A stretch of DNA of 63,624 nucleotides from an uncultured Planctomycetia bacterium (GTDB lineage Bacteria; Omnitrophota; Gorgyraeia; 2-02-FULL-51-18), in NCBI GenBank assembly GCA_964628355.1, contig CAZVNB010000014.1, positions 1-63,624 on the forward strand, read 5' to 3'. A program made the position numbers and the translations under genes. Below are positions 27,947-55,470 of this stretch, piece after piece (position 1 is the first letter of the stretch; each line of letters opens with the position of its first letter). The notes under the pieces are model-generated. The model was not told where the DNA came from, searched no databases, and saw only the letters and a list, made by a program, of their open reading frames with translations.

Positions 27947-27966
27947 AGGGTTATGGCTTCAAAGCC

Positions 27967-36370: not shown

Positions 36371-36625
36371 ATGGAAATTAAAGAAAATGAAGTTTATACA
36401 CACGAAGAAACCCAAGCACTGCTGAAAGTCAGCGCGAGTACGGTCACGCGCATGATTAAAAAAGGGTTGATCCGGACTGCAAAAGTGGGCAAACAGTACC
36501 GCATTATGGGTAAAGAACTTCTGAGGATATTGTCGCCGGAGCTTGAGGATAAGGTGGGAAAGGTCTACAACAAGGCTCGGAATTGGGCGCATGCCGACGT
36601 TGACGATAAGCGGGGGGTTCAATGA
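36371..36625 (+). CDS. Excisionase/MerR-like (HTH_17, BldC-like) DNA-binding protein
   Basis: YTHEETQALLKVSASTVTRMIKKGLIRTAKVGKQYRI winged-HTH pattern; stop overlaps pseB (ATGA). Confidence 0.88.
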   Translation: MEIKENEVYTHEETQALLKVSASTVTRMIKKGLIRTAKVGKQYRIMGKELLRILSPELEDKVGKVYNKARNWAHADVDDKRGVQ

Positions 36626-37590
36626 GCATCCACGGAAAAAATATTTTGATTACGGGCGGAACCGGATCGTTCGGAAAAAAATTTGTGGAAATCGCGCTGA
36701 AAGAAAGTCCTCCGAAACGCCTTGTGGTTTTTAGTCGTGATGAGTTTAAGCAACACCAAATGCAGCAACAGTTCGATCACCCTTGCATGCGTTATTTCAT
36801 CGGCGATGTTCGCGATGCCGAAAGGCTCCGCCGTGCGATGTATGACATTGATTATGTAATTCATGCGGCGGCACTGAAGCAGGTTCCGGCGATAGAATAC
36901 AATCCATTTGAAGCGGTCAAAACGAATATTATTGGTGCTGAAAACGTGATCAACGCGGCGATCGATTGTGGAGTTAAAAAGGTGATCGCGCTCAGCTCCG
37001 ACAAAGCGGTAAACCCCATCAACATGTACGGCGCGACCAAACTTTGCGCCGATAAGATGTTCATTTCCGGCAATAGCTATGCGGGCGCTTCAAACACATC
37101 TTTCAGCGTGGTGCGGTACGGCAATGTTATCGGATCTCGGGGGAGTGTGGTGGAAGTTTTTAATCATTTGAAATCCACGGGAGTCGTACCAGTAACGGAT
37201 AAACGAATGACAAGATTTTGGATTACGCTTGAGCAGGGAGTAAAGTTTGTTCTGGAAAATCTTGAAGAGATGCAGGGCGGTGAAATTTTTGTGCCCAAGA
37301 TTCCGAGCATGAAAATCATGGACCTTGTGGCGGCAATTGCTCCGAACTGCAAAGTGAAAACCATTGGTATCCGGCCAGGCGAAAAACTGCATGAAGTTCT
37401 TTTGACCGAAGACGATGCAGCTCACGCGTTGGAATTTAAAACAAAATTTATTGTTCAGCCTGAGTTTTTACCTGAAAAGAAAAAAGTTTGGAAAGACGTG
37501 AAAACTGTACGGCCTTTTTTCAGATATTCTAGCGATACCAATACCCAGTGGCTTAGCGTCCCGGAACTCAAGAAATTGATTCATCATTGA
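36622..37590 (+). CDS. pseB: UDP-N-acetylglucosamine 4,6-dehydratase (inverting)
   Basis: TGGTGSFGK, RDEFKQ, HAAALKQVPAIEYNPFE, STDK-like SSDKA, YGATK, RYGNVIGSRGSV, IGIRPGEKLHE. Confidence 0.92.
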   Translation: MSIHGKNILITGGTGSFGKKFVEIALKESPPKRLVVFSRDEFKQHQMQQQFDHPCMRYFIGDVRDAERLRRAMYDIDYVIHAAALKQVPAIEYNPFEAVKTNIIGAENVINAAIDCGVKKVIALSSDKAVNPINMYGATKLCADKMFISGNSYAGASNTSFSVVRYGNVIGSRGSVVEVFNHLKSTGVVPVTDKRMTRFWITLEQGVKFVLENLEEMQGGEIFVPKIPSMKIMDLVAAIAPNCKVKTIGIRPGEKLHEVLLTEDDAAHALEFKTKFIVQPEFLPEKKKVWKDVKTVRPFFRYSSDTNTQWLSVPELKKLIHH

Positions 37591-37594
37591 CGGA

Positions 37595-38530
37595 GTGTCG
37601 GTGAAAATTTCCGTGCTTGGGGATAGCGGCCTTCTGGGCCAGGCGCTTGTTCAAAGATTTTTATCAGGTACGGATGAAGTGCTTGGAATTTCTTCCGGTG
37701 ATTTCACAGGAAATCCTCACCGGGTATGGAATGAAGCAGGCTATCGGCATCAAAAGATCGATATTTTAAAGCAGAGAAAGTTGTTTTATAACATCCTAGG
37801 TCATTTTAAACCGCAGCTTTTAGTAAACTGCGCGGCATTGGTGGATTTGGGTTTTTGTGAGAAAGAACCCGGCCTGGCAGAAGCATTGAATTCATGCGTT
37901 CCGGAAGATTTGGCCAAATTTACGAAGATGGAAGGGATCCGTTTTATTCATATCTCAACGGATCAAGTGTTCGATGGAAAAAAGTCCAGCCCTTACCTGG
38001 AAACCGATACAGCCAAGCCTCTTCACGTTTATGGCCAAACAAAATATGTGGGTGAACAAAAAACAATGGAGCGAAACCCAACCGCTTTGGTGATACGAAC
38101 GAATATTGTGGGTTTTCGTGACCGCCAGGACCGACCCACATTTGCGGAGTGGTTGAGTGAAACTTTGCGGCGGAGAGAGCCCATTTTGTTGGCCGATGAT
38201 TTTGTGACAAGTTCCGTGCATGTGGACGCGCTTTCCCAATGGATCGTGAGTGCGCATCAACGCCGGCTTGAGGGACTGTTTCATTTTGCCACCCGCGACA
38301 GCGCTTCCAAATATGATTTTGGACGCCAGTTTGCTTTGAATGCCGGTTTGGATTTTGGGACCGTGAAGAAAGGAAAACTTAGTCAGTTGCAACTTAAACC
38401 GGAACGTGCACCGTATCTGGCACTCGATGTCCAACGTGGTGAGAAGATGTTGGAGATGTCATTGGAAACTATCGCTGATACAACGCGTCGCTTAGCGCGA
38501 GATTTTCAATCCAGACAGAAAAAAAGATGA
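37595..38530 (+). CDS. RmlD-like NDP-4-keto-sugar reductase (SDR)
   Basis: GDSGLLG, NCAA, HISTDQVFDG, YGQTK. Confidence 0.87.
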   Translation: MSVKISVLGDSGLLGQALVQRFLSGTDEVLGISSGDFTGNPHRVWNEAGYRHQKIDILKQRKLFYNILGHFKPQLLVNCAALVDLGFCEKEPGLAEALNSCVPEDLAKFTKMEGIRFIHISTDQVFDGKKSSPYLETDTAKPLHVYGQTKYVGEQKTMERNPTALVIRTNIVGFRDRQDRPTFAEWLSETLRRREPILLADDFVTSSVHVDALSQWIVSAHQRRLEGLFHFATRDSASKYDFGRQFALNAGLDFGTVKKGKLSQLQLKPERAPYLALDVQRGEKMLEMSLETIADTTRRLARDFQSRQKKR

Positions 38531-39621: not shown

Positions 39622-40653
39622 ATGTCCAATTCCCACTCGGTGGATAAAAAAATAGGCAAGCCGATGAATATTAGTCGGTTTAAACAGAGTGCCCTCCAAA
39701 CCCAAAACCTCGAGAAAATACAGAAGGAATTTAGCCGACTAGCCCGTTACGTTATTTCGTCGCCAAGCAAAGTCCAGGTCAAGCATTGCTATGTCTGCGA
39801 ATCTTCCAGAAGACAGAAGGCGGGTACGGTTTACGGGATTGATTATTTGAAGTGCCGCGATTGTAGCCATTTCTATTCGAATATTCGTCTGAGCCAGGAC
39901 GGGATGGAGGATTATTATAAAAAAAATCAAAACTATTCCGCAGATTACGCAAATCCCTCAACGTATCGGTATCGCTTAAAGGAAATAGCACTGCCTAAAG
40001 TCCAATTTGTGCAGGCTTATGTCAAAACCAAGCGAAAACGCTGGCTTGATGTCGGCAGCGGAATTGGGGATATGGTGGTGGCAGCCAAAAGAAAGGGGTT
40101 TGATGCGCAAGGAATAGAAATCAGCGAGAAATCAGCCCGGTTTGCTAAAAAAGTTTTTGGCATCGATATCTCATCAGAAACCCTCAAGAAGGTTTTGGAA
40201 CGGGAGGGCGAGGGGGCTTTTGACGTTGTTTCTTTTTTCGGAGTTCTTGAGCATATCCCAAATTTAAAAGAACAAGTGGCGTTGACCACGCGCCTTGTTT
40301 CAAAAAATGGCCTTTTGGTGATTGAAGTTCCCAATGCCAATAGCATTTCGACTTTATCCGATTTTTTGTATCCCGACCAGGTAACGCGTCATATGTATCC
40401 GCCTTTTCATATCATGGCGTTCACAAAAAAAAGTTTGTTCCGATTTGTTCGGAGTGCTGGGTTTAAACCGGCGGCTTTATGGTATTTTGGCCTTGATTTT
40501 TATAATCTTTTGATCCATTGGGGAATGCAATCCGAGCGGATGATGCGCGGGCCTTTGGCGGATTTTCTAATTTCCTGCAATAATCAGTTTCAGGAGGTCA
40601 TTGACCGTAACGAAATGAGCGATGAGATGATCCTCGTTTCGCGAAAAAAGTAG
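39622..40653 (+). CDS. Class I SAM-dependent methyltransferase with N-terminal Cys-rich zinc-binding region
   Basis: CYVC...CRDC, LDVGSGIG, FFGVLEHIP, EVPN. Confidence 0.85.
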   Translation: MSNSHSVDKKIGKPMNISRFKQSALQTQNLEKIQKEFSRLARYVISSPSKVQVKHCYVCESSRRQKAGTVYGIDYLKCRDCSHFYSNIRLSQDGMEDYYKKNQNYSADYANPSTYRYRLKEIALPKVQFVQAYVKTKRKRWLDVGSGIGDMVVAAKRKGFDAQGIEISEKSARFAKKVFGIDISSETLKKVLEREGEGAFDVVSFFGVLEHIPNLKEQVALTTRLVSKNGLLVIEVPNANSISTLSDFLYPDQVTRHMYPPFHIMAFTKKSLFRFVRSAGFKPAALWYFGLDFYNLLIHWGMQSERMMRGPLADFLISCNNQFQEVIDRNEMSDEMILVSRKK

Positions 40654-40656
40654 CCC

Positions 40657-41424
40657 GTGGCTACGGCGACTGAATTTTCATTGATTGTAACCTGCTATAA
40701 TTTTGAAGAGTATCTTGGCGAATGCCTCGAGTCCCTTATCCAGCAGCAGTATGAACCTAAAAATTTTGAAATTATCTGCGTCGATGATGGAAGCACGGAT
40801 GGATCGCCAGAAATTATAAAAGAGTATCAGAAAAAATCAGACTGCCTAATCCCCATTCGACTAAATAACTCAGGTCTTGAAAAGGCGTGTAACGCGGGAA
40901 TTCAGGTCGCCCATTTCAAACGCGTTGTTCGCGTCGACTCCGATGACATGCTGGCGACTAATTTTTTAGCGGTGATGAATCAGGCGATTTTGACCCGACC
41001 CGATTTTGATTTTTATTATTGCAAAAATTATTACGAATATTATTCGCCCAATGAAAACTTCGCCAAAATACTCCCGGATTTTGATGTTGAGGAAATTTTC
41101 AAAAGGGGCGATTTTTTTGCAACCGGAACGGTTTATCAAAAAAAAGATCTTGCTCAAATAGGTTTTTTCCCAGAAGGGATTAAAAATTGCGGGCTTGAGA
41201 ATTATAGCGTGATACTTGCGATGCTTGAGGACGGAAAAAAGGGGCTCGCCGTTCCCGGGACTTTTTTTAGTTATCGTAGGCACAAGACCAATATGAGTAC
41301 GCTGAGACGCCAGTCGATCATCGAGTATGGAAAAAAATTGCTTAGAAAGCACAACCGTGTTTTTCAAACTAACCCGTATCATCCTTACGGATTGAAGCTT
41401 GTGGCGGAGGAAACTAAAAAGTGA
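40657..41424 (+). CDS. GT2/GT-A glycosyltransferase
   Basis: VTCYN, DDGSTD, RVDSDD; GTG start. Confidence 0.85.
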   Translation: MATATEFSLIVTCYNFEEYLGECLESLIQQQYEPKNFEIICVDDGSTDGSPEIIKEYQKKSDCLIPIRLNNSGLEKACNAGIQVAHFKRVVRVDSDDMLATNFLAVMNQAILTRPDFDFYYCKNYYEYYSPNENFAKILPDFDVEEIFKRGDFFATGTVYQKKDLAQIGFFPEGIKNCGLENYSVILAMLEDGKKGLAVPGTFFSYRRHKTNMSTLRRQSIIEYGKKLLRKHNRVFQTNPYHPYGLKLVAEETKK

Positions 41425-42179
41425 AGTCTCGAATGTCACAACGGCGTGTTGCGACGGTGGAAGCGCGCATGGCCTCGAGTCGTTTGCCGGGAAAAATCTT
41501 GAAGAATATTTTAGGAAAATCAAGCCTCGAGAGGCTTGTGGAGAGGGTGCGCCGCTCAAGACTGATCGACGAAGTGGTGGTGGCGACGACGATCAATCCG
41601 CAGGACGATGCGGTGGAGACGTGGGCAAAAAAAACGGCTGTCTCTTTTTATCGTGGCAGTGAAGAAGATGTTCTTTTGAGAGTGCTTGAAGCGGCAAAAG
41701 CGTTTCAGGCGGATATTATCGTGGAACTGACCGGCGATTGTCCGTTGCTCGACCCCGTGCTGATAGATCAGGTGATTGAGAAATATCTTCATAGTGACTA
41801 TGACTATGTTAGCAATAACAAAGAAAGAAGCTACGCCAGGGGTTTTGACGCGCAAGTTTTTTCGGTCAAGGTGCTTGATGAAGTGAGCCGATTGACGAAA
41901 GATCCCGCCGATCACGAGCACGTCTCCCTTTATATTTATGAGCATCCTGAGCGTTATAAATTATTCACACTGTGGGCACCGGAACACCTTCACGCGCCGG
42001 ATCTAAGATTGTGCGTGGACACGCCCGAAGATTTTTTTGTCGTAGAGTCCATCTACAAGGCGTTGTATCCCAAAAAGCCGGACTTTGACGCCGAGGAGAT
42101 TATGAATTTTATCAAACAACACCCTGAAATAGCTCAAGTCAATAGCGTGGTCAAGCAAAAGCCCGCGAGGATGCCATGA
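41421..42179 (+). CDS. SpsF/PseF-type acylneuraminate cytidylyltransferase family protein
   Basis: EARMASSRLPGKIL, RGSEEDVL, LTGDCPLLDP, EHV, LCVDTPED. Confidence 0.88.
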   Translation: MKSRMSQRRVATVEARMASSRLPGKILKNILGKSSLERLVERVRRSRLIDEVVVATTINPQDDAVETWAKKTAVSFYRGSEEDVLLRVLEAAKAFQADIIVELTGDCPLLDPVLIDQVIEKYLHSDYDYVSNNKERSYARGFDAQVFSVKVLDEVSRLTKDPADHEHVSLYIYEHPERYKLFTLWAPEHLHAPDLRLCVDTPEDFFVVESIYKALYPKKPDFDAEEIMNFIKQHPEIAQVNSVVKQKPARMP

Positions 42180-43204
42180 AAAAAAAGGTTTATAAAGCTG
42201 CCATTGTGGGCTGCGGCCGGATTGCGAGTCTTTTTGCGGCGGATAAAAAAAGAAAGGGAATCGTCACGCATGCACAAGCCTATCAGGCACATCCTCGCAC
42301 GAGGCTTATTTCCGCCTGTGACCTTAACCGCGAGAGGCTTGAGGATTTTGGGCGCCGTTGGAACGTGGACAGGCTTTACACCGATTTTGAGGAAATGATG
42401 AAGACCGAAAAACCTGACATCGTCAGTATTTGCACGTTCAACTCAAGCCACGCGGAGATTGCCGGCCAAGCGGCTAAGCATGGCGTGAGTGGAATTATTT
42501 GCGAGAAACCCATTGCCGATTCGCTGGCTTCTGCCGAGCGGATGATCAAGATTTGCCGCGATAAAAACATCCCGCTCCTGGTTAATTATTCTAGGCGTTA
42601 CGATGCACTTCATCAGCAGTTTAAAACGTGGATTGAAAAAGGTCATTTGGGGAAGGTGCAAACCGTTTCCTGTTATTACACGGCCGGGATCATGAATACT
42701 GGGACGCATCTTTTTGATATCCTACGCTACTTCTTCGGAGAGGTCCGATGGGTTTGGGCAAATCCAGAAAAAGTGCTGCCCGGTAAGGACCCAACCGCGG
42801 ACCTCTATTTATTTTTTAAAAAGGGATTTGGCTGCAATGTATCCGCCCTCGATGTGCGGAATTATATGCAATTCGAGATTGATATTTATGGGACTAAAAG
42901 TCGGCTCCGGATCGAAGACAGCGGCATGAGGGCTACGCGATGGAAAGTAGAAAATCACAGGCTTTATTCGGGGTACAAGACGTTGGTTCCGAGTAAAATT
43001 TTTAGTACGGATTTTGGAAAAAATCTATATGGAATGGTTGATAGCCTGGTGCGTTTGATCGAGAGAAAAAAAGCGCCTGCCTGCAAAGGGGAAGATGGAA
43101 AAAAATCATTAGAAATAGCCATTGCCGCTTATCTGTCGCTTCAAAGGAAACAAAAAATATTTCTCCCACTTAAAGATAAAAAATTGGTTTTGGAGTCTTT
43201 ATGA
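42176..43204 (+). CDS. Gfo/Idh/MocA oxidoreductase
   Basis: GCGRIA, ICEKP, VNYSRR, NTGTHLFD. Confidence 0.88.
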   Translation: MKKKVYKAAIVGCGRIASLFAADKKRKGIVTHAQAYQAHPRTRLISACDLNRERLEDFGRRWNVDRLYTDFEEMMKTEKPDIVSICTFNSSHAEIAGQAAKHGVSGIICEKPIADSLASAERMIKICRDKNIPLLVNYSRRYDALHQQFKTWIEKGHLGKVQTVSCYYTAGIMNTGTHLFDILRYFFGEVRWVWANPEKVLPGKDPTADLYLFFKKGFGCNVSALDVRNYMQFEIDIYGTKSRLRIEDSGMRATRWKVENHRLYSGYKTLVPSKIFSTDFGKNLYGMVDSLVRLIERKKAPACKGEDGKKSLEIAIAAYLSLQRKQKIFLPLKDKKLVLESL

Positions 43205-44493
43205 AAAAATCAAATCTGGCTATTTTGGGCGGCCAACCCGTAAGAAAAAAAGCGTTCAAATCACATCCGTTGTTTGGAAAAGAAGAAAAAAAAGAAGTGT
43301 TGTCTGTGTTGAAAAGTGGACAATTGTCAGGTTTTATCGCGAACGCGGGTCCCGCTTTTTTGGGAGGAATGAAGGTTCGCGCGCTGGAGTCGCTCGTTTC
43401 AAGATATTTCGATATTCCTTATGTGGTTGCCATGAACTCCGCCACATCCGCACTGCACGCAGCGTTATCGGCTTTGGGCATAGGTCCGGGCGACGAAGTG
43501 ATCGTGACGCCTTATACCATGGCGGCAAGCGCTTCGGCTATTTTGATGCAGGGGGCCGTACCAATTTTTGCTGATATTGACGAGCGCACTTTTTGCTTTA
43601 ATCCTAAAAAAATCGAAGAAAAAATTTCATCACGCAGCAAAGCTCTAATGGTTGTGCATCTTTTTGGCCAGCCGGCACCGATGGATGAGATCATGAAAAT
43701 AGCGAGAACACACAAGCTTTCAGTCGTTGAAGACTGTGCTCAGTCGCCCGGAGCGCGCTATCATGACCAATTCGTTGGAACTTTGGGCGATGTCGGCGTT
43801 TTTAGTTTGAACCAACACAAAACTATCACTACCGGCGAAGGAGGTTTCGCAGTAACAAAAGACAAAAAATTGGCCGTGAGACTGCAACTTGTCCGAAATC
43901 ATGGCGAGGTCGTCGTCGATCATTTGAAAATGGATTTTGATCCAGGGCCGGTTTTGGGCTTCAATTACCGCATGACGGAACTGGAAGCGGCAGTGGGAGT
44001 GGCGCAGTTTAAGAAATTAGACAAGCTGAATCAACACAGAATAAAACTTGCAGAATATTTGATCGAAAAACTTTCGGATTTACCCGGGATCACCGTTCCT
44101 CACAGGCTTTCCGAGACAAGCCACGTCTATTTCCTTTTGCCTCTGAAATATGATGAGGCGATAACAGGTATTCCGCGTGATATTTTTATCAAAGCGTTGA
44201 ATGCGGAAGGAGTGCCATTTGGCGCGGGTTACGTGCGCCCGATTTATCTGGACCGCGCTTATCGCGAACGCCGGATTTACCCATACAGCTCTTTTCCGTT
44301 CGAGGGAACACTCCCATACAAAAAAGGCGATTGTCCGACGGCCGAACGTCTGCATTTCAAGGAATTGATTACGACTTCTTTGTGCCGGTATCCGCTTTCA
44401 TTGTCTGACATGGCCGATGTTGCTGCTGTTGTTAAAAAAGTTTTAGAATGCCGCAACGAACTTCAAAACGCTCGTCGATTGGGAAAGGCCTAA
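43201..44493 (+). CDS. DegT/DnrJ/EryC1/StrS sugar aminotransferase (PseC-role candidate)
   Basis: NSATSAL, EDCAQSPGA, FSLNQHKTITTGEGG (PLP Lys), NYRMTELEAA. Confidence 0.92.
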   Translation: MKKSNLAILGGQPVRKKAFKSHPLFGKEEKKEVLSVLKSGQLSGFIANAGPAFLGGMKVRALESLVSRYFDIPYVVAMNSATSALHAALSALGIGPGDEVIVTPYTMAASASAILMQGAVPIFADIDERTFCFNPKKIEEKISSRSKALMVVHLFGQPAPMDEIMKIARTHKLSVVEDCAQSPGARYHDQFVGTLGDVGVFSLNQHKTITTGEGGFAVTKDKKLAVRLQLVRNHGEVVVDHLKMDFDPGPVLGFNYRMTELEAAVGVAQFKKLDKLNQHRIKLAEYLIEKLSDLPGITVPHRLSETSHVYFLLPLKYDEAITGIPRDIFIKALNAEGVPFGAGYVRPIYLDRAYRERRIYPYSSFPFEGTLPYKKGDCPTAERLHFKELITTSLCRYPLSLSDMADVAAVVKKVLECRNELQNARRLGKA

Positions 44494-44496
44494 ATC

Positions 44497-46383
44497 ATGA
44501 GAGACCTTTTCTTAATCGAGACCACGGGCTGCGTTTCCTTGCTAAAATCAATACGCGGCGAGCGATCGGAGGGTTATTGCGCATCTTTTGACGAGCTTGT
44601 GATCCGTGAACTTAAAACAGCGGGAATCTCTGCCGTATGGCTTGGAAATTTTTCGAACGCGCAAGAATTAGCTCAAGCAGACGATGTGGCGGTGAGTGCG
44701 GCGAGAGGATGGCATGAAGGGCAGACGCATTGGAGCTATCGCGGCGTCAATCTTGCTTCTCTGGTGGAGTTGGCGCTGGGACCTTATCTAATGCGTGCTC
44801 TTGAGTATTTGACGTGTGCGGATAATTTTCTCAAAGTTCATTCGTTCAGGCAAGTGACAGTTCTTCGTAAAATTCCGGAGAGACCGGTGAGTTCTTTGAA
44901 TTGGATGCCCTCCGAAGCGATTGCGGAAGCCCTATTTAAAATGCTGGGCTGCAATGTTCAGGTCAAAACTGTACAAAAAATCGATAAGCCGGCGGTGCAT
45001 TTTAACTTCAAAATAGCTGCGAAAAAGACGATGGAATTTCTAACAAAAATATTTTCGCATTTTGAAACTTCAGGGGGTGCCACACTTTCCCAAAAAACCA
45101 TTTTGATTTGTTCAGCACTCCATCATATCCAAAATCTGGCTCCGCTGGTCGCACGAAAAAACCGGGTGATTTATCTGGACGAGAGTTTTCAAGGGTCCAA
45201 ATTAAATTTTTTACACCGGCATCAGATTTTTTATATGCCAATGCCATGGCTTGACCATAAACTCTGCCAAGAATCCCAAGAGAAAAGGAATTTTGTTCAG
45301 CGGCTTCGAGTCGAATGGCCAGGGATCATGGATTTATTAAAACAGTCCAAAGATTGGCAATGGCGCGGCGTGCCAATTTTTTGTCTGGCAGAGCTCAAGC
45401 TCCGTTTTTTTGCGGACATCAAAGTCCCCGAACTCTTGGATCGTATCGATATTTTTTTTGACGTATTGTCCCGATGGAATATTCAGGCTGTTGTTGTGGA
45501 TGAGGACGTGATTGAGTTTAGAAAAGGCCTGGTTAGTGTGGCGCGGCTTTTAGGGATTCCGAGTCTTGTGGTGTTACACGCGTCGACACCCAGTTTTTGC
45601 AAAGGTTTGGATCTAGCGCCTTTGACTGCAGATTATTTAGCCGTGGGCGGTGAAGGGATCAAACATGATTGCGTTCAATGGGGGATTTCACCGGAGAAAA
45701 TCGTGGTGTCCGGTATCCCGCGTTACGACGGCTTAAAAAAAATGAATTCGCATCGATCGCGCAAGGAAATAGAGCGGACGCTAGGAATTTCTTCTAAAAA
45801 GGAGCTGGTCGTATTTGCCGCCACCTATATTGCCGATCATCTGGAGACTCGTGGCTCGTGGACCGATATCGAAAGAGCCTATCGAGATTTTTTCGAGGTG
45901 ATGAGTCGTTTCCCCGATAAGCAAATCCTCGTGAAATTATACCCGATGGACCCCAATCCTTCCTGGGTCAGGCGCATTGCCGAAGAATCCGGCGTGTTCG
46001 ATGTTTTGTTCGCTGGCGATTGCGATCTCCCGACGGTTCTCGCGGGGGCCGATTACGCATTGTCGTTTTACTCAAGCGCTGTAACGGAGGCTTTTGTTCT
46101 TGGGAAGTGGACCGTGGTGATGGATTATTTGAGCAGGCTTTCTCCTATCGAGCCTTTATCTCATTATCCGGGTTCGGTATTTACAGTAAAAAATAAGGCG
46201 CAGCTTGAAACGTTGCTACATGGTTTTTTTGATCGCGATGAGAATATTTTAAGAGCAGCCGAACAGGCCCGTGCTGAATTAACCTTTGCTTGGGCCGGAC
46301 GTTGCGATGGCCGCGCTTCTTTGCGCGTGTCGGATTTTCTAGATCGTATGGTGACGAATCCGAAGGAATTACAAGCGGCATGA
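44497..46383 (+). CDS. Uncharacterised GT-B-like surface-carbohydrate protein (candidate nonulosonate transferase)
   Basis: C-terminal half resembles GT-B / 2-epimerase-like folds (VVVDED, SGIPRYD, VKLYP, SSAVTEAFVLGK). Function inferred from its position between NulO synthesis genes and the flippase. Confidence 0.5.
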   Translation: MRDLFLIETTGCVSLLKSIRGERSEGYCASFDELVIRELKTAGISAVWLGNFSNAQELAQADDVAVSAARGWHEGQTHWSYRGVNLASLVELALGPYLMRALEYLTCADNFLKVHSFRQVTVLRKIPERPVSSLNWMPSEAIAEALFKMLGCNVQVKTVQKIDKPAVHFNFKIAAKKTMEFLTKIFSHFETSGGATLSQKTILICSALHHIQNLAPLVARKNRVIYLDESFQGSKLNFLHRHQIFYMPMPWLDHKLCQESQEKRNFVQRLRVEWPGIMDLLKQSKDWQWRGVPIFCLAELKLRFFADIKVPELLDRIDIFFDVLSRWNIQAVVVDEDVIEFRKGLVSVARLLGIPSLVVLHASTPSFCKGLDLAPLTADYLAVGGEGIKHDCVQWGISPEKIVVSGIPRYDGLKKMNSHRSRKEIERTLGISSKKELVVFAATYIADHLETRGSWTDIERAYRDFFEVMSRFPDKQILVKLYPMDPNPSWVRRIAEESGVFDVLFAGDCDLPTVLAGADYALSFYSSAVTEAFVLGKWTVVMDYLSRLSPIEPLSHYPGSVFTVKNKAQLETLLHGFFDRDENILRAAEQARAELTFAWAGRCDGRASLRVSDFLDRMVTNPKELQAA

Positions 46384-47879
46384 AGGACTCGTTGAGAGAC
46401 AGAATAGCCAAGGATACGCTTTGGTACACGCTGAGCGTTTATATCGCGCAATTCTTGGGTATTTTTTCAGGCCTTGCATCACGCAAATTTTTGGGCCCCG
46501 AGGACATGGGGCTCTGGGTATTGCTCCAGACTTTTATGACATTTGGTCTATTTTCCGAGATGGGCATTCTCACGGCGATGTATTGCAAGATACCGGTTTT
46601 TGTGGGACAGAAGGACGCGGAGCAAGTTCGTCAAACTCAAAATGCCGCTTTCACGTTTGCGTTTACAGGCGTGATCGGCGTAGCGTTTCTTTTTATCGGT
46701 TATGGTTTATTTGCCGGGCATGAGAGCCCAAAGATTTTTTTAGGATCTGTCGCGATGGCGGCCTTGACGATTCTCACATGCATTTATAATTTTTATATTT
46801 TATGTTCGTGGGCGCTGAACCGTTTTAAAGCATTGGCGCTCACTGTGATTTTAAATGCGGTGTTGACTCTTGTGCTCGTTTTTTTGTTTGTTCGCCCGTG
46901 GGGTTTTTATGGAAGCTGCGCCTATACGTTGATAGTCACTTTGATTTCTGTCGTCACCCTCTCTAACGCTTTGAAAATCAGCCCATCTTTTCTATGGGAC
47001 TGGAAGCGCATAAAAGATCTTTTATGGTTTGGTTTTCCGGTTTTTGCCGGTGGAATGATTTTCGTATTTTTTCTCACGGTCGATCGTATGATCATCACCC
47101 GTTTTTTTGACAGCCGCGCGCTCGGTTATTACAGCATTACGATGATTGTCTTTTCGCTCTCGAGCACGGCACCGAAGATGCTCAGCATCGTGCTGTTTCC
47201 TAAGATGCAGGAAGAATATGCAGCGTCCGGCGATTTGGATAAAATTATGCAGATGGTGGTGAAGCCCGATCTTGCGATCGCTTTTTTCTCACCGCTGCTT
47301 TTGGGGAGCGTCTATTTTTTTGTGCCAACCGTTGTGACACAAATACTACCGAAGTTCACACCGGGCATTTTAAGTGCCCAGGTATTGCTTCTGGGAGGGT
47401 TTTTTATTTCTTTGGTATACAATGCCCAGAGTTTCTTGATTGCTGTCGATAAGCGGATGCATTCGATCCCGTTTGTCTTGTGCTCGATTCTCGTTCTTTA
47501 CGCGGTCAGCAGGTGTTTGATTCGGCTTGGGTATGGAATTGAAGGCGTCGCGGCCGGGGCGAGCGTTGCATTTTTTACCTATTTTGTATCGCTCACTTTT
47601 TACGTGTTGAATCATCGACTGAATTACGCAAAGATGGCGGCGTACTACGTACCAATTATTACGGTCTTTCTGTATTTTCTTTTCTGGATTTGGTGGATCG
47701 GAGCCCATGTTTACCCCGGAGGCCCATGGATGGGAAGCAGCATCAAAACTATTTTACTGACGGTGGTATCCGTGCCGATTTTTTATCTCGGGGATAGGAA
47801 AACCCACGCGATCCGATATGGTTTTTATTTGATCGCGCAACGTTTGGGGCGTCGTGAAACAGAAAGGGCGACAAGATGA
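46380..47879 (+). CDS. wzx: Wzx-type oligosaccharide/polysaccharide flippase (MOP superfamily)
   Basis: About 12-14 TM segments; KFLGPEDMG, DRMIITRFF..ALGYYS; start ATG 46380. Confidence 0.85.
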   Translation: MKDSLRDRIAKDTLWYTLSVYIAQFLGIFSGLASRKFLGPEDMGLWVLLQTFMTFGLFSEMGILTAMYCKIPVFVGQKDAEQVRQTQNAAFTFAFTGVIGVAFLFIGYGLFAGHESPKIFLGSVAMAALTILTCIYNFYILCSWALNRFKALALTVILNAVLTLVLVFLFVRPWGFYGSCAYTLIVTLISVVTLSNALKISPSFLWDWKRIKDLLWFGFPVFAGGMIFVFFLTVDRMIITRFFDSRALGYYSITMIVFSLSSTAPKMLSIVLFPKMQEEYAASGDLDKIMQMVVKPDLAIAFFSPLLLGSVYFFVPTVVTQILPKFTPGILSAQVLLLGGFFISLVYNAQSFLIAVDKRMHSIPFVLCSILVLYAVSRCLIRLGYGIEGVAAGASVAFFTYFVSLTFYVLNHRLNYAKMAAYYVPIITVFLYFLFWIWWIGAHVYPGGPWMGSSIKTILLTVVSVPIFYLGDRKTHAIRYGFYLIAQRLGRRETERATR

Positions 47880-48433
47880 AGCAAAAAATTTTTTGGGAAG
47901 GACGGCGACTTTATTTCAGAGGTTTAGAGAAAAAGGATCTTCGCGAGCGTTATTTTGATTGGTTCAACGACCAAGAGGTCACGCGCTACATGTTCAACGG
48001 GATGTTTCCAAATACGACCAAACGGATGCGCGAGTTTTATGAGGAAATATTAGTGCAGAAGCATGTGGTATTTGCGATCATGGACAAGCGCAGGGGCCAG
48101 CATATCGGCAACGTGGGGATTCATCGGATCAACTGGCGGGACGGCATCGGGGAGTATGGTATAATCATCGGGGAGAAAAAATTTCACGGCAAAGGCTATG
48201 GCCATGAAGCTACCGGGATGATCCTCGATTATATTTTCCAACGCGTCGGTCTGCGTCGCGTATGGCTGGGTGTTCACGAACAGCATAAAAAAGCGATCGC
48301 AATTTATAAAAAAATTGGGTTTGAAACCGAAGGTCGGCTTAGGAAAGAAATTTATACGGATGGCCGATGGCATGATCGTTTGATCATGGGTATTTTCCGG
48401 GACGAATATCTGGCTCGAAAAAAGAGGGGATGA
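47876..48433 (+). CDS. GNAT (RimJ/RimL-type) N-acetyltransferase, PseH-role candidate
   Basis: HIGNVG, GKGYGHEA, YKKIGFETEGRLR. Confidence 0.88.
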   Translation: MKQKIFWEGRRLYFRGLEKKDLRERYFDWFNDQEVTRYMFNGMFPNTTKRMREFYEEILVQKHVVFAIMDKRRGQHIGNVGIHRINWRDGIGEYGIIIGEKKFHGKGYGHEATGMILDYIFQRVGLRRVWLGVHEQHKKAIAIYKKIGFETEGRLRKEIYTDGRWHDRLIMGIFRDEYLARKKRG

Positions 48434-49530
48434 TGTCAAAATACGGCGAACCGATGTACCCGACCTTGAAATACTGTGCGCGTTGCTGCCTGCCGGAAAC
48501 CACCGAGGGCATCCAGTTTGATGAGATGGGAATTTGCCAAGCTTGCCAGTCTGCCGAACAAAAAATCCATATCAATTGGGTGGAGCGCGAAAAAGAACTA
48601 CGCAAGATTCTAGATCATCATAAAAAAATTGCCGGAGATAACTACGACTGCATTGTTCCGATCAGCGGTGGGAAGGACAGCACGTTTCAATTGCACGTGT
48701 TGACGCAGGTTTACAAAATGAAACCTTTGGCTGTGACGTTCAGCCACAATTGGTTCAGCGAAACGGGCCGCTACAATTTGACGAACGCAATCGAAAAATT
48801 CAACGTGGATCATATCCTGTTCACGCCGAGTCGCGATTTGGTCAACCGCCTGGCGCGTGAATCGTTGAAACAGATCGGTGATTCCTGCTGGCATTGTCAT
48901 GCTGGAGTGGGAGCCTTTCCCCTGCAGGTGGCGGTGCGTTTCAGGGTCCCTCTTTTAATTTGGGGTGAATCTATCTCCGAGTCATCAGGCCGTGCCTGCT
49001 ATTTTGAGCCGGTCCGAAAATTTGACCGGGATTATTTTACCAAAGTCTCGGCCAAGGTGTATCCAGACAAAATGATCAATCAAGAAATTTCAAAAAAAGA
49101 TATTTACCCCTTCCAGTTGCCAACTTATGAGGAAATTGATCGAGTTGGAGTGGTCGGAATACATCTCGGGGATTATCTTTTTTGGGATGACGAACGACAA
49201 ATGGAGTTCGTCAGGGACGTTTATGGGTGGCGCGAAGATAAAGTGGAAGGTACTTACAAACGTTATAAAAGCGTCGAATGTGTCATGGCGGGCGTGCATG
49301 ATTATTCAAAATTTGTGAAACGCGGATTTGGACGAGGCACGGATCATGCCAGCGCGGATGTGCGCGCCGGCCTTTTGACGCGTGAAGAAGCTTTCGAAAT
49401 GGCAAAGAAATATGATTCGGAAAGACCCGAAATGTTGGATTATTATCTCAAGCTCACCGGCTATACGGAGCAGCAATTCATGGAAATTGTTAAATCTCAC
49501 CGGGAAGGCAAATCCAAATATCTTTCTTGA
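48430..49530 (+). CDS. N-acetyl sugar amidotransferase (WbuX/WbpG/PseA family, PP-loop)
   Basis: CARCCLP..CQAC, YDCIVPISGGKDS, CWHCH, KFVKRGFGR. Confidence 0.9.
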   Translation: MMSKYGEPMYPTLKYCARCCLPETTEGIQFDEMGICQACQSAEQKIHINWVEREKELRKILDHHKKIAGDNYDCIVPISGGKDSTFQLHVLTQVYKMKPLAVTFSHNWFSETGRYNLTNAIEKFNVDHILFTPSRDLVNRLARESLKQIGDSCWHCHAGVGAFPLQVAVRFRVPLLIWGESISESSGRACYFEPVRKFDRDYFTKVSAKVYPDKMINQEISKKDIYPFQLPTYEEIDRVGVVGIHLGDYLFWDDERQMEFVRDVYGWREDKVEGTYKRYKSVECVMAGVHDYSKFVKRGFGRGTDHASADVRAGLLTREEAFEMAKKYDSERPEMLDYYLKLTGYTEQQFMEIVKSHREGKSKYLS

Positions 49531-49534
49531 TGTT

Positions 49535-50896
49535 ATGAGCGGCGATCTTCATCTCTTAACGGTGGCGGAAGCTACAAATCTTATCCGATCGGGCGAAATA
49601 AATTCGCAGGAACTGGTGTCCGCCTGCGTTGGGCAGATCGAGAAGTTCGAGCCTCGCCTTAAGGCTTGGGCTTATTTGAACGCCGAGAAGGCGTTGGACC
49701 AAGCCAAAGCATTCGATGAAAAACGGCCACGGAGCGGCCAGGCCCCAGGTCTTTTAGGAGGTGTGCCCGTCGGAATCAAAGATGTTTTTAATACGATTGA
49801 TGCGCCAACGGCGATGGGTAGTCCCCTCTGGAAGGATTTTACCCCCGGTAACGATGCCCGCGCCGTGTTTCATCTTAAACGTGCGGATGCCATCATGATG
49901 GGCAAGACGGTTACGGCCGAATTTGCCGTACATGCCCCGGGTCCGACGTTAAATCCTCACGACCCCACGCGAATTCCAGGCACTTCTTCCAGCGGTTCAG
50001 CGGTGGCTGTGGCTTCCAAGATGGTTCCATGCGCACTTGGTACGCAAACCGCCGGCTCTGTGATTCGTCCAGCCAGCTATTGCGGTATTTACGGCATGAA
50101 ACCTTCTTTTGGCTTGATTCCGCGCACCGGCATGCTCAAAACTACGGATTCACTGGACACCATAGGTTTTTTTTCAAGAAGCGCGGAAGATCTTGAGATT
50201 TTATTGGATGTTTTGAGGGTACACGGCCAGGATTACCCTATCAGCGAAACCAAGTTAAGCGACCGTATTTTCCAAAATAAAAAAGGCGAAAAATGGCGGG
50301 TCGCTATTGTCGAGACGACCGTTTCAGAATGCGCCGAATCTTATGCAAGAGAAGCCTTGCGAGATTTTGCCGAAACGCTTTCCGAAGACAAGGACATGCA
50401 AATTTCTTATTTTAATTTGCCCACAGCTTTTGGTGAGGCGCATGATGTTCATGAGATTATTTATGACAAAAGCTTAGCCTATTATTTCAAGAATGAATAT
50501 AAAGAAAAGACGCTGATTAGCCGGGAAATCAAGGCGATGATCGAACACGGCAATGCGGTGACGCTTGAAGAATACCGCAAGGCGACCCTCCGGCAAAATC
50601 AACTGGCGCACCAGCTGGAGGATTTGCTATCGGAATTCGATGCGTGCTTTACGCTTTCCACTGCCGGTGAAGCGCCAAAAATCGGTGTTGATGAAAAAAA
50701 GGACAGCTGTCTTATTTGGACGCTTTGCGGCATTCCGGCGGTGAATCTGCCATTTTTGAAGGGGCCGTCGGGTTTGCCGATGGGACTTCAAGCGATATCC
50801 GAAAGATATTCGGACCTGCGCTTGCTTCGGTTTGTAAAAATTTTAGGTGAGCGTTTTGCCGAGCCGTTTCAACTATCTAAAAGAGGGAGATCATGA
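49535..50896 (+). CDS. Amidase-signature (GatA-like) amidase
   Basis: VGIKD (Lys), PGTSSSGSAV (Ser), GTQTAGSVIRPAS (nucleophile Ser), GMKPSFG, LPMGLQ; start ATG 49535. Confidence 0.9.
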   Translation: MSGDLHLLTVAEATNLIRSGEINSQELVSACVGQIEKFEPRLKAWAYLNAEKALDQAKAFDEKRPRSGQAPGLLGGVPVGIKDVFNTIDAPTAMGSPLWKDFTPGNDARAVFHLKRADAIMMGKTVTAEFAVHAPGPTLNPHDPTRIPGTSSSGSAVAVASKMVPCALGTQTAGSVIRPASYCGIYGMKPSFGLIPRTGMLKTTDSLDTIGFFSRSAEDLEILLDVLRVHGQDYPISETKLSDRIFQNKKGEKWRVAIVETTVSECAESYAREALRDFAETLSEDKDMQISYFNLPTAFGEAHDVHEIIYDKSLAYYFKNEYKEKTLISREIKAMIEHGNAVTLEEYRKATLRQNQLAHQLEDLLSEFDACFTLSTAGEAPKIGVDEKKDSCLIWTLCGIPAVNLPFLKGPSGLPMGLQAISERYSDLRLLRFVKILGERFAEPFQLSKRGRS

Positions 50897-51486
50897 AAGA
50901 TACGCAACAGCTCGAGATTTGGAGAGGAAAATTTGGGAAGGCTTACACGGATCGCAATCTCGTCAGCCCTGGAGAGAAGAAACCTTTGTTCAAGAAAATG
51001 CTAAAAGGACTAACATTGTCACAGGTTCTTGAGGTCGGCTGTAACCGTGGCCACAATCTTGTGGCGTTGGCGGATCTTTTAAAGATCGAACCGGTGGGTA
51101 TCGAGCCCAATGATTACGCAAGAAAGAAGGCCAGGCAGGCCGACCCGCGAATTTCGGTTCTTAAAAGCACCGCGTTTGATCTGCCATTTAAGGATGGCGT
51201 GTTTGACCTCGCATTTACTTCGGGTGTGCTGATCCATATTTGTTTGCAGGATCTTCCGCTGGCCATTGACGAGCTCTGTCGGGTGAGTCGACGGTATGTT
51301 CTGGCTTCCGAATATTATGGCGAAAAGGAGACCGCGATCCACTATCGGGGCCACAACCATTTATTGTGGAAGAGAGATTTCAAGTCCCATTTTCTTAAGC
51401 GTCATCCGGAGCTTAAATTAATTCACAGCGGTTTCTACGGAGAAGAGATCAACCATCGCATGGACTGGTGGTTATTTGAAAAGTAG
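50893..51486 (+). CDS. Pseudaminic acid biosynthesis-associated methyltransferase
   Basis: QLEIWRGKFGKAYTDRN, LEVGCN.G.NL, FTSGVLIH, EYY...YRG....LWKRDF. Confidence 0.85.
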   Translation: MKDTQQLEIWRGKFGKAYTDRNLVSPGEKKPLFKKMLKGLTLSQVLEVGCNRGHNLVALADLLKIEPVGIEPNDYARKKARQADPRISVLKSTAFDLPFKDGVFDLAFTSGVLIHICLQDLPLAIDELCRVSRRYVLASEYYGEKETAIHYRGHNHLLWKRDFKSHFLKRHPELKLIHSGFYGEEINHRMDWWLFEK

Positions 51487-55467: not shown

Positions 55468-55470
55468 GCA

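What the first reader, a model, noticed from the sequence alone, without database searches (positions are those of the whole stretch)
36622..51486. Non-canonical nonulosonic acid pathway: PseB plus RmlD-like reductase plus extra oxidoreductase, no PseG
Seen: PseB, a NulO synthase, a cytidylyltransferase, a DegT aminotransferase, a GNAT, a Pse-associated methylase and a WbuX-like enzyme, plus an RmlD-like reductase and a Gfo/Idh/MocA enzyme that canonical Pse synthesis does not use. No PseG nucleotide-sugar hydrolase or hydrolysing NeuC is recognisable. Inference A: reduce/re-oxidise/aminate steps change stereochemistry to give a rarer NulO isomer. Inference B: PseB, the reductase and the 2-epimerase at 60732 make an L-FucNAc/L-QuiNAc-type sugar (Fnl/Wbv logic) that WbuX amidinates, alongside a separate NulO.
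Basis: partly seen in the sequence, partly recalled or inferred. Interest (0 to 1): 0.55.

Follow-up and report, generated by a model that had tools for sequence, protein, structure and literature searches.

The report
Composite non-canonical nonulosonic acid operon
One tightly packed operon of an uncultured Omnitrophota-like bacterium joins three widespread but biochemically untested gene modules that probably make, aminate late, amidinate and export an undescribed sialic-acid-like nine-carbon sugar without the textbook PseC, PseH and PseG enzymes.

Summary
No PseG or hydrolysing NeuC reaches its cut-off in the window, the 96%-complete genome, or five related genomes. The reading needs correction. 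PseB, the RmlD-like reductase and the NeuB-like synthase form a cassette kept together in about 58 of 62 loci across many phyla, mostly with no aminotransferase. The synthase is a separate clade, sister to PseI. This predicts reduction, not amination, of the PseB product, giving a 7-hydroxy 3,5,9-trideoxy sugar. That is the fusaminic-acid type known from Fusobacterium nucleatum 25586. The DegT is not PseC. It belongs to a clade always beside a Gfo/Idh/MocA enzyme and a cytidylyltransferase, and it co-occurs with true PseC in two loci. It therefore looks like a portable late amination module acting on a carbon other than C7 (inferred). WbuX plus an amidase would form an acetamidino group. The best candidate for the missing hydrolase is a 255-aa GT2 that occupies the post-NeuB slot held by a GT4 in other phyla. 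Inference A is partly supported; Inference B is not. This scan has noted all three modules before on other DNA. All chemistry here is inferred.

The parts
36371..36625 (+). 84-aa HTH_17-type small DNA-binding protein. Its stop overlaps the pseB start. Probable regulator of the locus.
   Evidence: ORF listed. Copies 65-88% identical lie directly upstream of pseB or NeuB in L170, L171, L115, L117, L174, L175 and L094. Pfam HTH_17 is annotated on the L170, L171, L174 and L175 copies.
36622..37590 (+). [quoted passage not shown]
   Evidence: TIGR03589 scores 505.7 > 407.75; FnlA scores 240.6 << 730. The best PDB match is H. pylori FlaA1 2gn4 at 393 bits, against Pen 6bwc at 244. The SDK...YGATK motif is present.
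37595..38530 (+). RmlD-like NAD(P)H reductase, a paralogue of RmlD. Inferred to be the C4 ketoreductase acting on the PseB product.
   Evidence: TIGR01214 scores 160 < 224. GDSGLLG, STD and YGQTK are retained. It is adjacent to the cassette NeuB in 58 of 62 loci. A true RmlD (236.6 bits) lies elsewhere on contig C25.
38527..39621 (+). NeuB-family nonulosonate synthase of the cassette-specific clade.
   Evidence: It is below both the NeuB and PseI cut-offs. Its clade is set off by a branch of length 1.36 with SH-aLRT 100 and is sister to PseI-scoring proteins. It is the only NulO synthase in the genome.
39622..40653 (+). Zn-ribbon plus class I SAM methyltransferase (343 aa). It is an insertion relative to the syntenic locus L174.
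   Evidence: Methyltransf_23. A CxxC...CxxC N-terminus is present. Homologues 31-40% identical occur in L117-L120. It is absent between NeuB and GT2 in L174.
40657..41424 (+). 255-aa GT-A fold GT2. Candidate UDP-6-deoxy-hexosamine hydrolase, functionally in place of PseG (inferred).
   Evidence: Glycos_transf_2. The AF2 model has pLDDT 94.9 and a plain GT-A fold. Orthologues occur in 3 of 400 other phylum genomes (plus this one), each next to the cassette NeuB. NeuB-GT2 adjacency holds in L170-L174 down to 39% identity. It takes the slot held by a GT4 in 55 of 62 other loci.
41421..42179 (+). CTP_transf_3 cytidylyltransferase of the 'CMPt2' clade. It is the only such enzyme in the operon.
   Evidence: Pfam CTP_transf_3 at 107 bits; no PseF hit. 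Its clade has SH-aLRT 99 together with the second cytidylyltransferases of L047, L057, L062 and L031, and with that of L117.
42176..43204 (+). Gfo/Idh/MocA oxidoreductase, the inferred oxidising step of the add-on amination module.
   Evidence: Homologues sit beside a DegT of the window's clade and a CTP_transf_3 in L047, L057, L062, L117, L170, L173, L174, L175, L176 and L177.
43201..44493 (+). DegT-family aminotransferase of the Gfo-partnered clade. It is not PseC.
   Evidence: PseC scores 236 < 423.5. Its clade of 10 rows has SH-aLRT 97 and is separate from the PseC clade. L175 and L176 each hold one member of both clades.
44497..46383 (+). 628-aa GT-B protein related to the LIC12162 / Glyphos_transf / Capsule_synth families. 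Probable CMP-nonulosonate transferase; alternative hydrolase candidate.
   Evidence: BFO_1060 at 50 bits and Glyphos_transf. Atlas look-alikes. The AF2 model has pLDDT 82. Foldseek's best matches are WecB/NeuC and GT4-type GT-B structures, TM about 0.6-0.7 of the target. Counterparts lie in L174 (42%), L175, L170, L171 and L118.
46290..47879 (+). Wzx-type flippase. The true start is probably the ATG at 46380.
   Evidence: Polysacc_synt and Polysacc_synt_3. Candidate start codons.
47876..48433 (+). GNAT acetyltransferase, inferred to N-acetylate the newly installed amine.
   Evidence: Acetyltransf_3 at 91.7 bits; PseH at 43.6 < 93.1. Homologues lie next to Gfo/DegT in L057, L176 and L177.
48430..49530 (+). 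WbuX/PseA-family PP-loop N-acetyl-sugar amidotransferase, which forms acetamidino groups.
   Evidence: TIGR03573 scores 343 > 203.2. It is 85% identical in L174 and 75% in L057.
49382..50896 (+). Amidase-signature (GatA-like) enzyme, the probable ammonia supplier for WbuX. The true start is probably the ATG at 49535.
   Evidence: Pfam Amidase at 267.7 bits. It is adjacent to WbuX here, in L057 and in L174. Candidate start codons.
50893..51486 (+). Pseudaminic-acid-biosynthesis-associated methylase family protein.
   Evidence: TIGR03587 scores 159.5 > 112.05.

Best explanation
The operon 36371-51486 is a composite pathway for a modified nonulosonic acid (NulO). It is built from three portable modules plus export genes.

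(1) Reductive core. [quoted passage not shown] The RmlD-like enzyme reduces C4 to give UDP-6-deoxy-L-AltNAc, where the canonical route would aminate. A UDP-sugar hydrolase releases the free sugar; the best candidate is the 255-aa GT2. The clade-specific NeuB-like synthase then condenses the sugar with PEP. The product would be a 5-acetamido-3,5,9-trideoxy-non-2-ulosonic acid with a 7-hydroxyl.

(2) Late amination add-on. The CMPt2-type cytidylyltransferase activates the acid. Gfo/Idh/MocA oxidises one hydroxyl. The Gfo-partnered DegT transaminates the ketone, and the GNAT acetylates the new amine. The target is most likely a carbon other than C7. C8 has a natural precedent; C4 is possible.

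(3) Tailoring. WbuX, fed with ammonia by the amidase, turns an N-acetyl group into an acetamidino group. Two methyltransferases add methyl groups.

The 628-aa GT-B protein then transfers the CMP-sugar and Wzx flips the lipid-linked glycan.

Shown: gene identities, synteny, clade membership, and the absence of PseC, PseG and NeuC. Inferred: every chemical step after PseB, the order of the steps, and the site of amination.
For: The cassette is conserved. Of 62 loci with at least 3.5 kb of flank on each side, 60 have PseB, 58 the RmlD-like gene, 58 a cytidylyltransferase, 55 a GT4 and 3 the GT2. Only 10 have any DegT.

The synthase clade is distinct and sister to PseI. In RmlD-type loci the NeuB is 54-72% identical to the window's. 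In PseC-type loci with the add-on (L175, L176) it is 33-35%.

The RmlD-like protein keeps its cofactor and catalytic motifs. The genome has its own true RmlD and RmlC elsewhere.

The matching sugar chemistry exists in nature. [quoted passage not shown]

The DegT lies in the Gfo-partnered clade (SH-aLRT 97), separate from PseC, and co-occurs with PseC that scores over its cut-off (463 and 465 bits) in L175 and L176.

The window's cytidylyltransferase is in the clade that always precedes Gfo-DegT. The triad is adjacent in 10 loci from Omnitrophota, Gemmatimonadota, Acidobacteriota, marine bacteria and an archaeon.

An 8-amino NulO is known from Flexibacter maritimus (PMC3210612).

The GT2 is strictly linked to the cassette NeuB.

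Locus L174 carries the same gene order at 42-88% identity.

PseG and NeuC are absent here and in five related genomes that carry the cassette.
Against: There is no biochemical or glycan-structure evidence for any step.

Acidobacteriaceae loci (L026 and relatives) carry a true PseC (474.6 bits) together with the RmlD-like gene. The reductase is therefore not simply a replacement for PseC.

Some cassette loci (L117-L120) have neither the GT2 nor the GT4 beside NeuB. L116 lacks the RmlD-like gene. The hydrolase assignment is therefore not universal.

The GT2 fold is an ordinary GT-A glycosyltransferase fold and cannot distinguish a hydrolase from a transferase.

The 628-aa GT-B protein resembles WecB/NeuC-type folds and could be the hydrolase instead.

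Gfo/Idh/MocA plus DegT pairs classically act on C3 of UDP-GlcNAc(A). They might therefore make a separate sugar.

The site of the late amination is deduced only from co-occurrence with PseC.
Confidence: 0.5

Rival explanations
1. Reader's Inference A taken literally. The 4-keto group is reduced, the same carbon (C7 of the acid) is later re-oxidised by Gfo/Idh/MocA and aminated by DegT. This gives a 5,7-diamino-3,5,7,9-tetradeoxy isomer with unusual C7 stereochemistry.
For: The operon holds a reductase, an oxidoreductase, an aminotransferase and an N-acetyltransferase. In this window C7 would carry a free hydroxyl for Gfo to use. Add-on modules could have been bolted onto a 7-hydroxy cassette.
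Against: The same Gfo-DegT-cytidylyltransferase module co-occurs with true PseC in L175 and L176, where C7 should already carry nitrogen. Orthologues are expected to act at the same position.
Confidence: 0.15
2. Gfo/Idh/MocA, DegT and GNAT make a separate UDP-2,3-diamino-2,3-dideoxy-hexose by WbpB/WbpE/WbpD logic, which WbuX amidinates. This sugar would be unrelated to the nonulosonate and merely shares the same glycan locus.
For: Gfo2 scores 92.9 bits on the archaeal UDP-GlcNAc 3-dehydrogenase model. The classical Gfo plus DegT pairs act on C3 of UDP-GlcNAc(A) (established knowledge of WbpB/WbpE and GnnA/GnnB). WbuX-family enzymes amidinate 3-acetamido sugars in P. aeruginosa O5 (from memory).
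Against: The window already has a separate set for that chemistry: Gfo1 at 30986 (173 bits on the same model), DegT at 23091, an LbH acetyltransferase at 22553 and WecB at 32002. A CTP_transf_3 gene is adjacent to, or one gene from, the Gfo gene in all 10 loci examined. The window's only cytidylyltransferase belongs to that linked clade.
Confidence: 0.15
3. An essentially canonical pseudaminic acid route. DegT acts as PseC, the GNAT as PseH, the NeuB-like enzyme as PseI and the cytidylyltransferase as PseF, with an unrecognised hydrolase. The RmlD-like and Gfo enzymes would serve side products.
For: PseC is the best NCBIfam hit of the DegT (236 bits) and PseH is a weak hit of the GNAT. The synthase clade is sister to PseI.
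Against: All four proteins score far below their equivalog cut-offs. The DegT lies in a clade separate from PseC. The synthase clade travels with the RmlD-like gene, mostly without any aminotransferase.
Confidence: 0.1
4. Reader's Inference B. PseB, the reductase and the 2-epimerase at 60732 make an L-FucNAc or L-QuiNAc-type sugar, which WbuX amidinates.
For: The Wbv pathway does use an RmlD-like reductase (from memory). WbuX was named for FucNAm synthesis. UDP-6-deoxy-L-AltNAc might also serve directly as a glycosyl donor, as the F. nucleatum O-chain suggests.
Against: The dehydratase is a PseB equivalog, not FnlA. No WecB-like gene lies within about 10 kb in any of 87 cassette loci. The 2-epimerase at 60732 is 9 kb beyond the operon, among unrelated glycosyltransferases.
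Confidence: 0.05

Closest known systems
CMP-pseudaminic acid pathway (PseB, PseC, PseH, PseG, PseI, PseF) of Campylobacter jejuni and Helicobacter pylori
   Same: The first enzyme is the same (a PseB equivalog). The synthase clade is sister to PseI. The acid is CMP-activated. A WbuX/PseA-type amidotransferase and a 'Pse-associated methylase' are present as tailoring genes.
   Different: PseC, PseH, PseG, PseI and PseF all score below their equivalog cut-offs or are absent. An RmlD-like reductase sits where the amination steps would be. The only DegT belongs to a different, Gfo-partnered clade.
[quoted passage not shown]
   Same: This is the sugar type expected from PseB plus C4 reduction, a NeuB-type condensation and WbuX-type amidination: one ring nitrogen, a 7-hydroxyl and a 9-deoxy end.
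   Different: Only the structure is known. I found no published pathway in the library searched. I could not test whether Fusobacterium carries this cassette. The window also encodes an oxidoreductase, aminotransferase and acetyltransferase set that fusaminic acid does not need.
8-amino-3,5,7,8,9-pentadeoxynonulosonic acid of the Flexibacter (Tenacibaculum) maritimus O-antigen; Kdo8N formation in Shewanella (KdnB oxidase plus KdnA aminotransferase, from memory)
   Same: Both are precedents for installing an amino group on the side chain of an ulosonic acid by oxidising an alcohol and then transaminating.
   Different: The genes for the Flexibacter sugar are not described in the papers I searched. 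KdnB is an iron-type alcohol dehydrogenase, not a Gfo/Idh/MocA enzyme. The site of action in this window is unknown.
WbuX/WbuY/WbuZ-type acetamidino systems (E. coli O145, P. aeruginosa WbpG, C. jejuni PseA)
   Same: WbuX scores well above the family cut-off.
   Different: The HisH/HisF-like partners are replaced by an adjacent amidase-signature enzyme. L175 shows the HisH/HisF version in an otherwise related locus.

Membership tests
Canonical pseudaminic acid pathway | [quoted passage not shown] | tested here: met
   TIGR03589 scores 505.7 > 407.75. FlaA1 is the best PDB hit. The SDK...YxxxK motif is present.
Canonical pseudaminic acid pathway | PseC aminotransferase | tested here: not met
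   The window's DegT scores 236 < 423.5, and the second DegT at 23091 scores 267.6 < 423.5. The operon DegT falls in a clade separate from PseC proteins that score over the cut-off.
Canonical pseudaminic acid pathway | PseH N-acetyltransferase | tested here: not met
   The GNAT scores 43.6 < 93.1 on TIGR03585.
Canonical pseudaminic acid pathway | PseG UDP-sugar hydrolase | tested here: not met
   The best whole-genome hit is 43 bits against a cut-off of 153.55, and it is an MGDG-synthase-like GT28. It is also absent from 5 related genomes.
Canonical pseudaminic acid pathway | PseI synthase and PseF cytidylyltransferase equivalogs | tested here: not met
   PseI scores 254 < 340.25. There is no PseF hit at E <= 1e-5; only KdsB-like and CTP_transf_3 hits are found.
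Legionaminic / neuraminic acid pathways | Hydrolysing 2-epimerase (NeuC/LegG) and NeuB/LegI equivalog | tested here: not met
   The best NeuC score is 69 < 235.9. NeuB scores 261 < 399.65.
FnlABC / WbvBRD L-FucNAc and L-QuiNAc pathways | FnlA-type 4,6-dehydratase/5,3-epimerase with an adjacent reductase and 2-epimerase | tested here: not met
   FnlA scores 240.6 < 730. No WecB-like gene is found in 87 cassette loci.
Reductive ('aminotransferase-free') NulO cassette (defined by synteny in this scan, not a curated family) | PseB, the RmlD-like gene and the cassette-clade NeuB adjacent on one strand | tested here: met
Reductive ('aminotransferase-free') NulO cassette (defined by synteny in this scan, not a curated family) | GT4-like gene after NeuB, and a cassette-type (CMPt1) cytidylyltransferase | tested here: not met
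   There is no GT4-like orthologue in the genome; a GT2 takes the slot. The cytidylyltransferase is in the CMPt2 clade.
Add-on amination module (cytidylyltransferase, Gfo/Idh/MocA, DegT, GNAT; defined by synteny) | Adjacent CTP_transf_3, Gfo and DegT genes, with the DegT in the Gfo-partnered clade | tested here: met
   The same arrangement is seen in L047, L057, L062, L117, L170, L173-L177.
WbuX N-acetyl sugar amidotransferase (TIGR03573) | Score over the curated cut-off | tested here: met
   343.1 > 203.2.
WbuX N-acetyl sugar amidotransferase (TIGR03573) | HisH/HisF-like (WbuY/WbuZ) partners | tested here: not met
   The neighbour is an amidase. No GATase or His_biosynth gene is present in the operon.

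The most novel reading that the evidence does not exclude
The operon makes a nonulosonic acid not yet described: a 9-deoxy acid with a 5-acetamidino group, a 7-hydroxyl and a second acetamido group installed late on the CMP-activated sugar at C8 (or C4). In the same reading, a small GT-A fold GT2 serves as the UDP-sugar hydrolase in place of the GT-B enzyme PseG. That would be a non-homologous replacement, and it would also explain the GT4 found in the same slot in other phyla.
Probability: 0.2. Interest if true: 0.7.

Novelty: new variant of a known kind. Interest (0 to 1): 0.52.

Why it matters
Nonulosonic acids are major surface determinants of bacteria and archaea. Their diversity is usually predicted from the three textbook pathways (Neu, Leg, Pse). 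This operon shows that three gene modules can be combined like building blocks: reductive entry, late oxidise-and-aminate, and amidase-fed amidination. None of them has been tested biochemically, and none was found described in the papers I searched. The modules are spread over many environmental phyla.

If the inferred chemistry holds, three things follow. It would supply the missing genes for fusaminic-type sugars and perhaps for 8-amino sugars. It would give a candidate for the long-missing hydrolase. It would also change how NulO types are predicted from genomes. The synteny here offers a small, clearly defined set of enzymes for in vitro reconstitution.

Tried and rejected
- **Pen/Pal-type two-enzyme start (Bacillus thuringiensis).** Rejected. 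The dehydratase matches FlaA1 far better than Pen, and the RmlD-like protein does not hit Pal.
- **The RmlD-like gene as the housekeeping dTDP-rhamnose reductase.** Rejected. A true RmlD and RmlC lie elsewhere in the genome.
- **A PseG hidden elsewhere.** The best genome hit is an MGDG-synthase-like GT28.
- **A GT4-like hydrolase candidate in this genome.** No orthologue was found.
- **Metagenome scan with the DegT.** It returned only generic DegTs of 45% identity or less, with no informative context.
- **Word-based search for relatives of the 628-aa protein.** It found only the protein itself.
- **Foldseek on the GT2 model.** It gave ordinary GT-A glycosyltransferases, which cannot separate a hydrolase from a transferase.
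- **Foldseek on the 628-aa model.** It gave generic GT-B matches led by WecB/NeuC epimerases, also not decisive.
- **Promoter and terminator scan.** Promoter-like sites were not above shuffled expectation. Terminator-like sites were somewhat above it but scattered inside genes, so neither set operon boundaries.
- **Literature searches for the cassette.** None of these described the pathway: RmlD with PseB, NeuB and nonulosonic; Omnitrophota with nonulosonic; fusaminic acid biosynthesis.

Full report
**What is there**

The window is contig C14 of a 1.67-Mb genome that is 96% complete. The nearest relatives of its NulO synthase are Omnitrophota MAGs.

From 36371 to 51486, fifteen genes lie on the + strand with gaps or overlaps of a few bases. 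In order they are:
- an 84-aa HTH_17 protein
- PseB
- an RmlD-like SDR
- a NeuB-family synthase
- a Zn-ribbon methyltransferase
- a 255-aa GT2
- a CTP_transf_3 cytidylyltransferase
- a Gfo/Idh/MocA oxidoreductase
- a DegT aminotransferase
- a 628-aa GT-B protein
- Wzx
- a GNAT
- WbuX
- an amidase-signature enzyme
- a 'Pse-associated' methylase

Only PseB, WbuX and the methylase exceed their curated NCBIfam cut-offs. The synthase (NeuB 261 / PseI 254), the DegT (PseC 236), the GNAT (PseH 43.6) and the RmlD-like protein (160) all fall well below theirs.

No PseG or hydrolysing NeuC reaches its cut-off anywhere in the genome. The best PseG-like hit is an MGDG-synthase-like GT28. Five related genomes that carry the same synthase clade also lack both.

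**The core is a conserved reductive cassette**

A scan of one genome per species with the synthase returned more than 588 relatives. I examined the 80 best, at 56-70% identity. They come from Chloroflexota (Anaerolineae), Acidobacteriota, Gemmatimonadota, Verrucomicrobiota, Planctomycetota, Thermodesulfobacteriota and Omnitrophota.

Of 62 loci with at least 3.5 kb on both sides:
- 60 have PseB
- 58 have the RmlD-like gene
- 58 have a cytidylyltransferase
- 55 have a roughly 380-aa GT4 directly after the synthase
- only 10 have any DegT

In a tree of NeuB-family proteins, the cassette synthases, including the window's, sit on one side of a branch of length 1.36 (SH-aLRT 100). That clade is sister to proteins that pass the PseI cut-off. 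I picked the group by identity to the window, so the long branch is the evidence, not the grouping.

The RmlD-like protein keeps the GxxGxxG, STD and YxxxK motifs. It is not the housekeeping enzyme: a true RmlD (236.6 bits) and RmlC lie on other contigs. PseB is a genuine inverting dehydratase. FlaA1 is its best PDB match, it has the SDK...YGATK motif, and it scores far below the FnlA cut-off.

The simplest reading is that the PseB product is reduced at C4 rather than aminated. That gives UDP-6-deoxy-L-AltNAc and then a 5-acetamido-3,5,9-trideoxy acid. Exactly this pair of sugars, L-6dAltNAc and a 5-acetimidoylamino-3,5,9-trideoxy-gluco-nonulosonic acid (fusaminic acid), is known from the F. 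nucleatum ATCC 25586 O-antigen. I found no paper that assigns genes to it.

There is a caveat. Acidobacteriaceae loci carry a true PseC (474.6 bits) next to PseB together with the RmlD-like gene. So the reductase does not always replace PseC.

**The DegT is not PseC but part of a portable amination module**

The window's cytidylyltransferase does not belong to the usual cassette clade. It belongs to a second clade (SH-aLRT 99). In Gemmatimonadota and Pyrinomonadaceae this clade occurs as an extra copy, always followed by Gfo/Idh/MocA and DegT.

I sampled contexts of Gfo homologues at 63-43% identity:
- **L174** is a near-copy of this operon. Identities are HTH 88%, PseB 76%, RmlD-like 49%, NeuB 72%, GT2 63%, cytidylyltransferase 71%, Gfo 63%, DegT 72%, the 628-aa protein 42%, GNAT 77%, WbuX 85% and amidase 63%.
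- **L175** (bacterial) and **L176** (Halobacteriota MAG) each contain a PseC over the cut-off (463 and 465 bits). Each also has a second DegT of the window's type beside Gfo and a cytidylyltransferase. Their NeuB is only 33-35% identical to the window's. L175 shows no RmlD-like gene; L176 has a LegB/RmlB-like SDR next to PseB.

In a DegT tree the ten Gfo-partnered proteins, including the window's, form one side of a branch (SH-aLRT 97). The PseC proteins form another.

So the triad, plus a GNAT that is adjacent in L057, L176 and L177, is an add-on that works with both 7-amino and 7-hydroxy backbones. I infer three things from this:
- The module installs an additional acetamido group on a carbon other than C7.
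- It probably acts on the CMP-activated acid. DegT-type sugar aminotransferases use nucleotide-linked keto sugars (established knowledge), and a dedicated cytidylyltransferase travels with the pair.
- C8 has a natural precedent in the 8-amino-pentadeoxy acid of Flexibacter maritimus. C4 cannot be excluded.

A rival is that the pair makes a separate 2,3-diamino hexose. It is weakened because the window already has a separate set for that chemistry: Gfo at 30986, DegT at 23091, an LbH acetyltransferase at 22553 and WecB at 32002.

**The missing hydrolase**

In the window and its closest relatives, a 255-aa GT2 takes the slot after the synthase that a GT4 holds in 55 of 62 other loci.
- Among 400 sampled genomes of the phylum, orthologues of this GT2 occur only in three, each directly beside the cassette synthase.
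- In public assemblies the family (66-39% identity) again sits directly after NeuB in all five contexts inspected. These include a marine contig.
- In the window a methyltransferase gene has been inserted between the two.
- The GT4 is conserved across phyla about as well as the reductase (36.5% against 39.5% mean identity).
- Between the window and L174 the GT2 is 63% identical, against 42% for the 628-aa GT-B protein.

This pattern fits an enzyme with a fixed small-molecule substrate. I therefore propose the GT2 (and the GT4 elsewhere) as the UDP-6-deoxy-hexosamine hydrolase, and the 628-aa protein as the CMP-nonulosonate transferase. The 628-aa protein has look-alikes in the Glyphos_transf, Capsule_synth and LIC12162 families.

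This is inference only:
- The GT2 model is a plain GT-A fold.
- The 628-aa model resembles WecB/NeuC-type GT-B structures.
- Four cassette loci have no glycosyltransferase gene beside the synthase.

**Tailoring**

WbuX (343 bits) is followed by an amidase-signature enzyme instead of HisH/HisF-like partners. The same pair occurs in L057 and L174, while L175 has the HisH/HisF form. The likely role of the amidase is to supply ammonia for forming an acetamidino group. Two methyltransferases remain unassigned.

Inference A has the right kinds of enzymes, but the evidence points to amination at another carbon.

Inference B is not supported:
- The dehydratase is not FnlA-like.
- The reductase is tied to the synthase.
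- No cassette locus of 87 has a 2-epimerase nearby.
- The genome has a single NulO synthase.

**Relation to earlier notes of this scan**

Earlier notes on other DNA describe the reductive cassette, the extra amination module and the WbuX-amidase pair. My tests were run independently on this window and agree with them. They are AI notes and do not count as support.

New here:
- all three modules are combined in one operon
- the GT2-for-GT4 replacement
- the conserved small HTH gene

All chemistry remains untested.

Noticed in passing
window 36371-36625 (+): An unlisted 84-aa HTH_17 ORF overlaps the pseB start. It is more conserved (65-88% identity) than most of the enzymes. It sits upstream of pseB or NeuB in seven other NulO loci, including one with a different synthase type (L094, L175).
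   Followed up: partly
window 22553-24260 and 30986-34079 (+): A second sugar-amination set is present: an LbH acetyltransferase, a DegT (PseC 267 < 423), a Gfo/Idh/MocA (UDP-GlcNAc 3-dehydrogenase model, 173 bits), a WecB-type 2-epimerase and an SDR. It resembles WbpB/E/D/I logic for a 2,3-diacetamido sugar.
   Followed up: partly
window 27245-29639, 34076-36284, 51476-57392, 61850-62533: There are several pairs of ArnC/AglJ-like polyprenyl-phosphate sugar synthases (GT2) with PMT_2/YfhO-type GT-C membrane transferases. This suggests periplasmic glycosylation of proteins or lipids in addition to the Wzx route.
   Followed up: no
window 39622-40653 (+) versus L174: The Zn-ribbon methyltransferase sits between the synthase and the GT2 only in this window. 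In L119 and L120 a homologue sits between the RmlD-like gene and the synthase. It looks like a mobile accessory of the cassette.
   Followed up: partly
L026, L034, L041, L052, L070, L022 (Acidobacteriota, Verrucomicrobiota): These loci hold a DegT next to PseB, and most also have the RmlD-like gene and the cassette synthase. The L026 copy is over the PseC cut-off, four others cluster with it, and L022's does not. The simple 'reductase replaces aminotransferase' reading does not explain this.
   Followed up: partly
L173:5468-7495 (marine metagenome contig): A 675-aa fusion of a CTP_transf_3 cytidylyltransferase with a class-III aminotransferase lies beside an aldo-keto reductase in a cassette locus. 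This looks like a second, non-homologous 'activate, oxidise or reduce, aminate' trio.
   Followed up: no
L116 (G088:C24): The RmlD-like gene is missing between the cytidylyltransferase and the synthase in an otherwise typical PseB - cytidylyltransferase - NeuB - GT2 locus.
   Followed up: no
window 17898-22556 (+): This stretch holds futalosine-type menaquinone genes: UbiA prenyltransferase, a UbiX-like flavoprotein, two CofH/MqnC-type radical SAM enzymes and a VitK2_biosynth protein. They lie directly upstream of the glycan island. plsX-fabHDF and smc lie further upstream.
   Followed up: no
L174:17692-18287: The Pse-associated methylase homologue is split into two short ORFs (106 and 86 aa) in the syntenic relative. 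This may be a frameshift or an assembly error.
   Followed up: no
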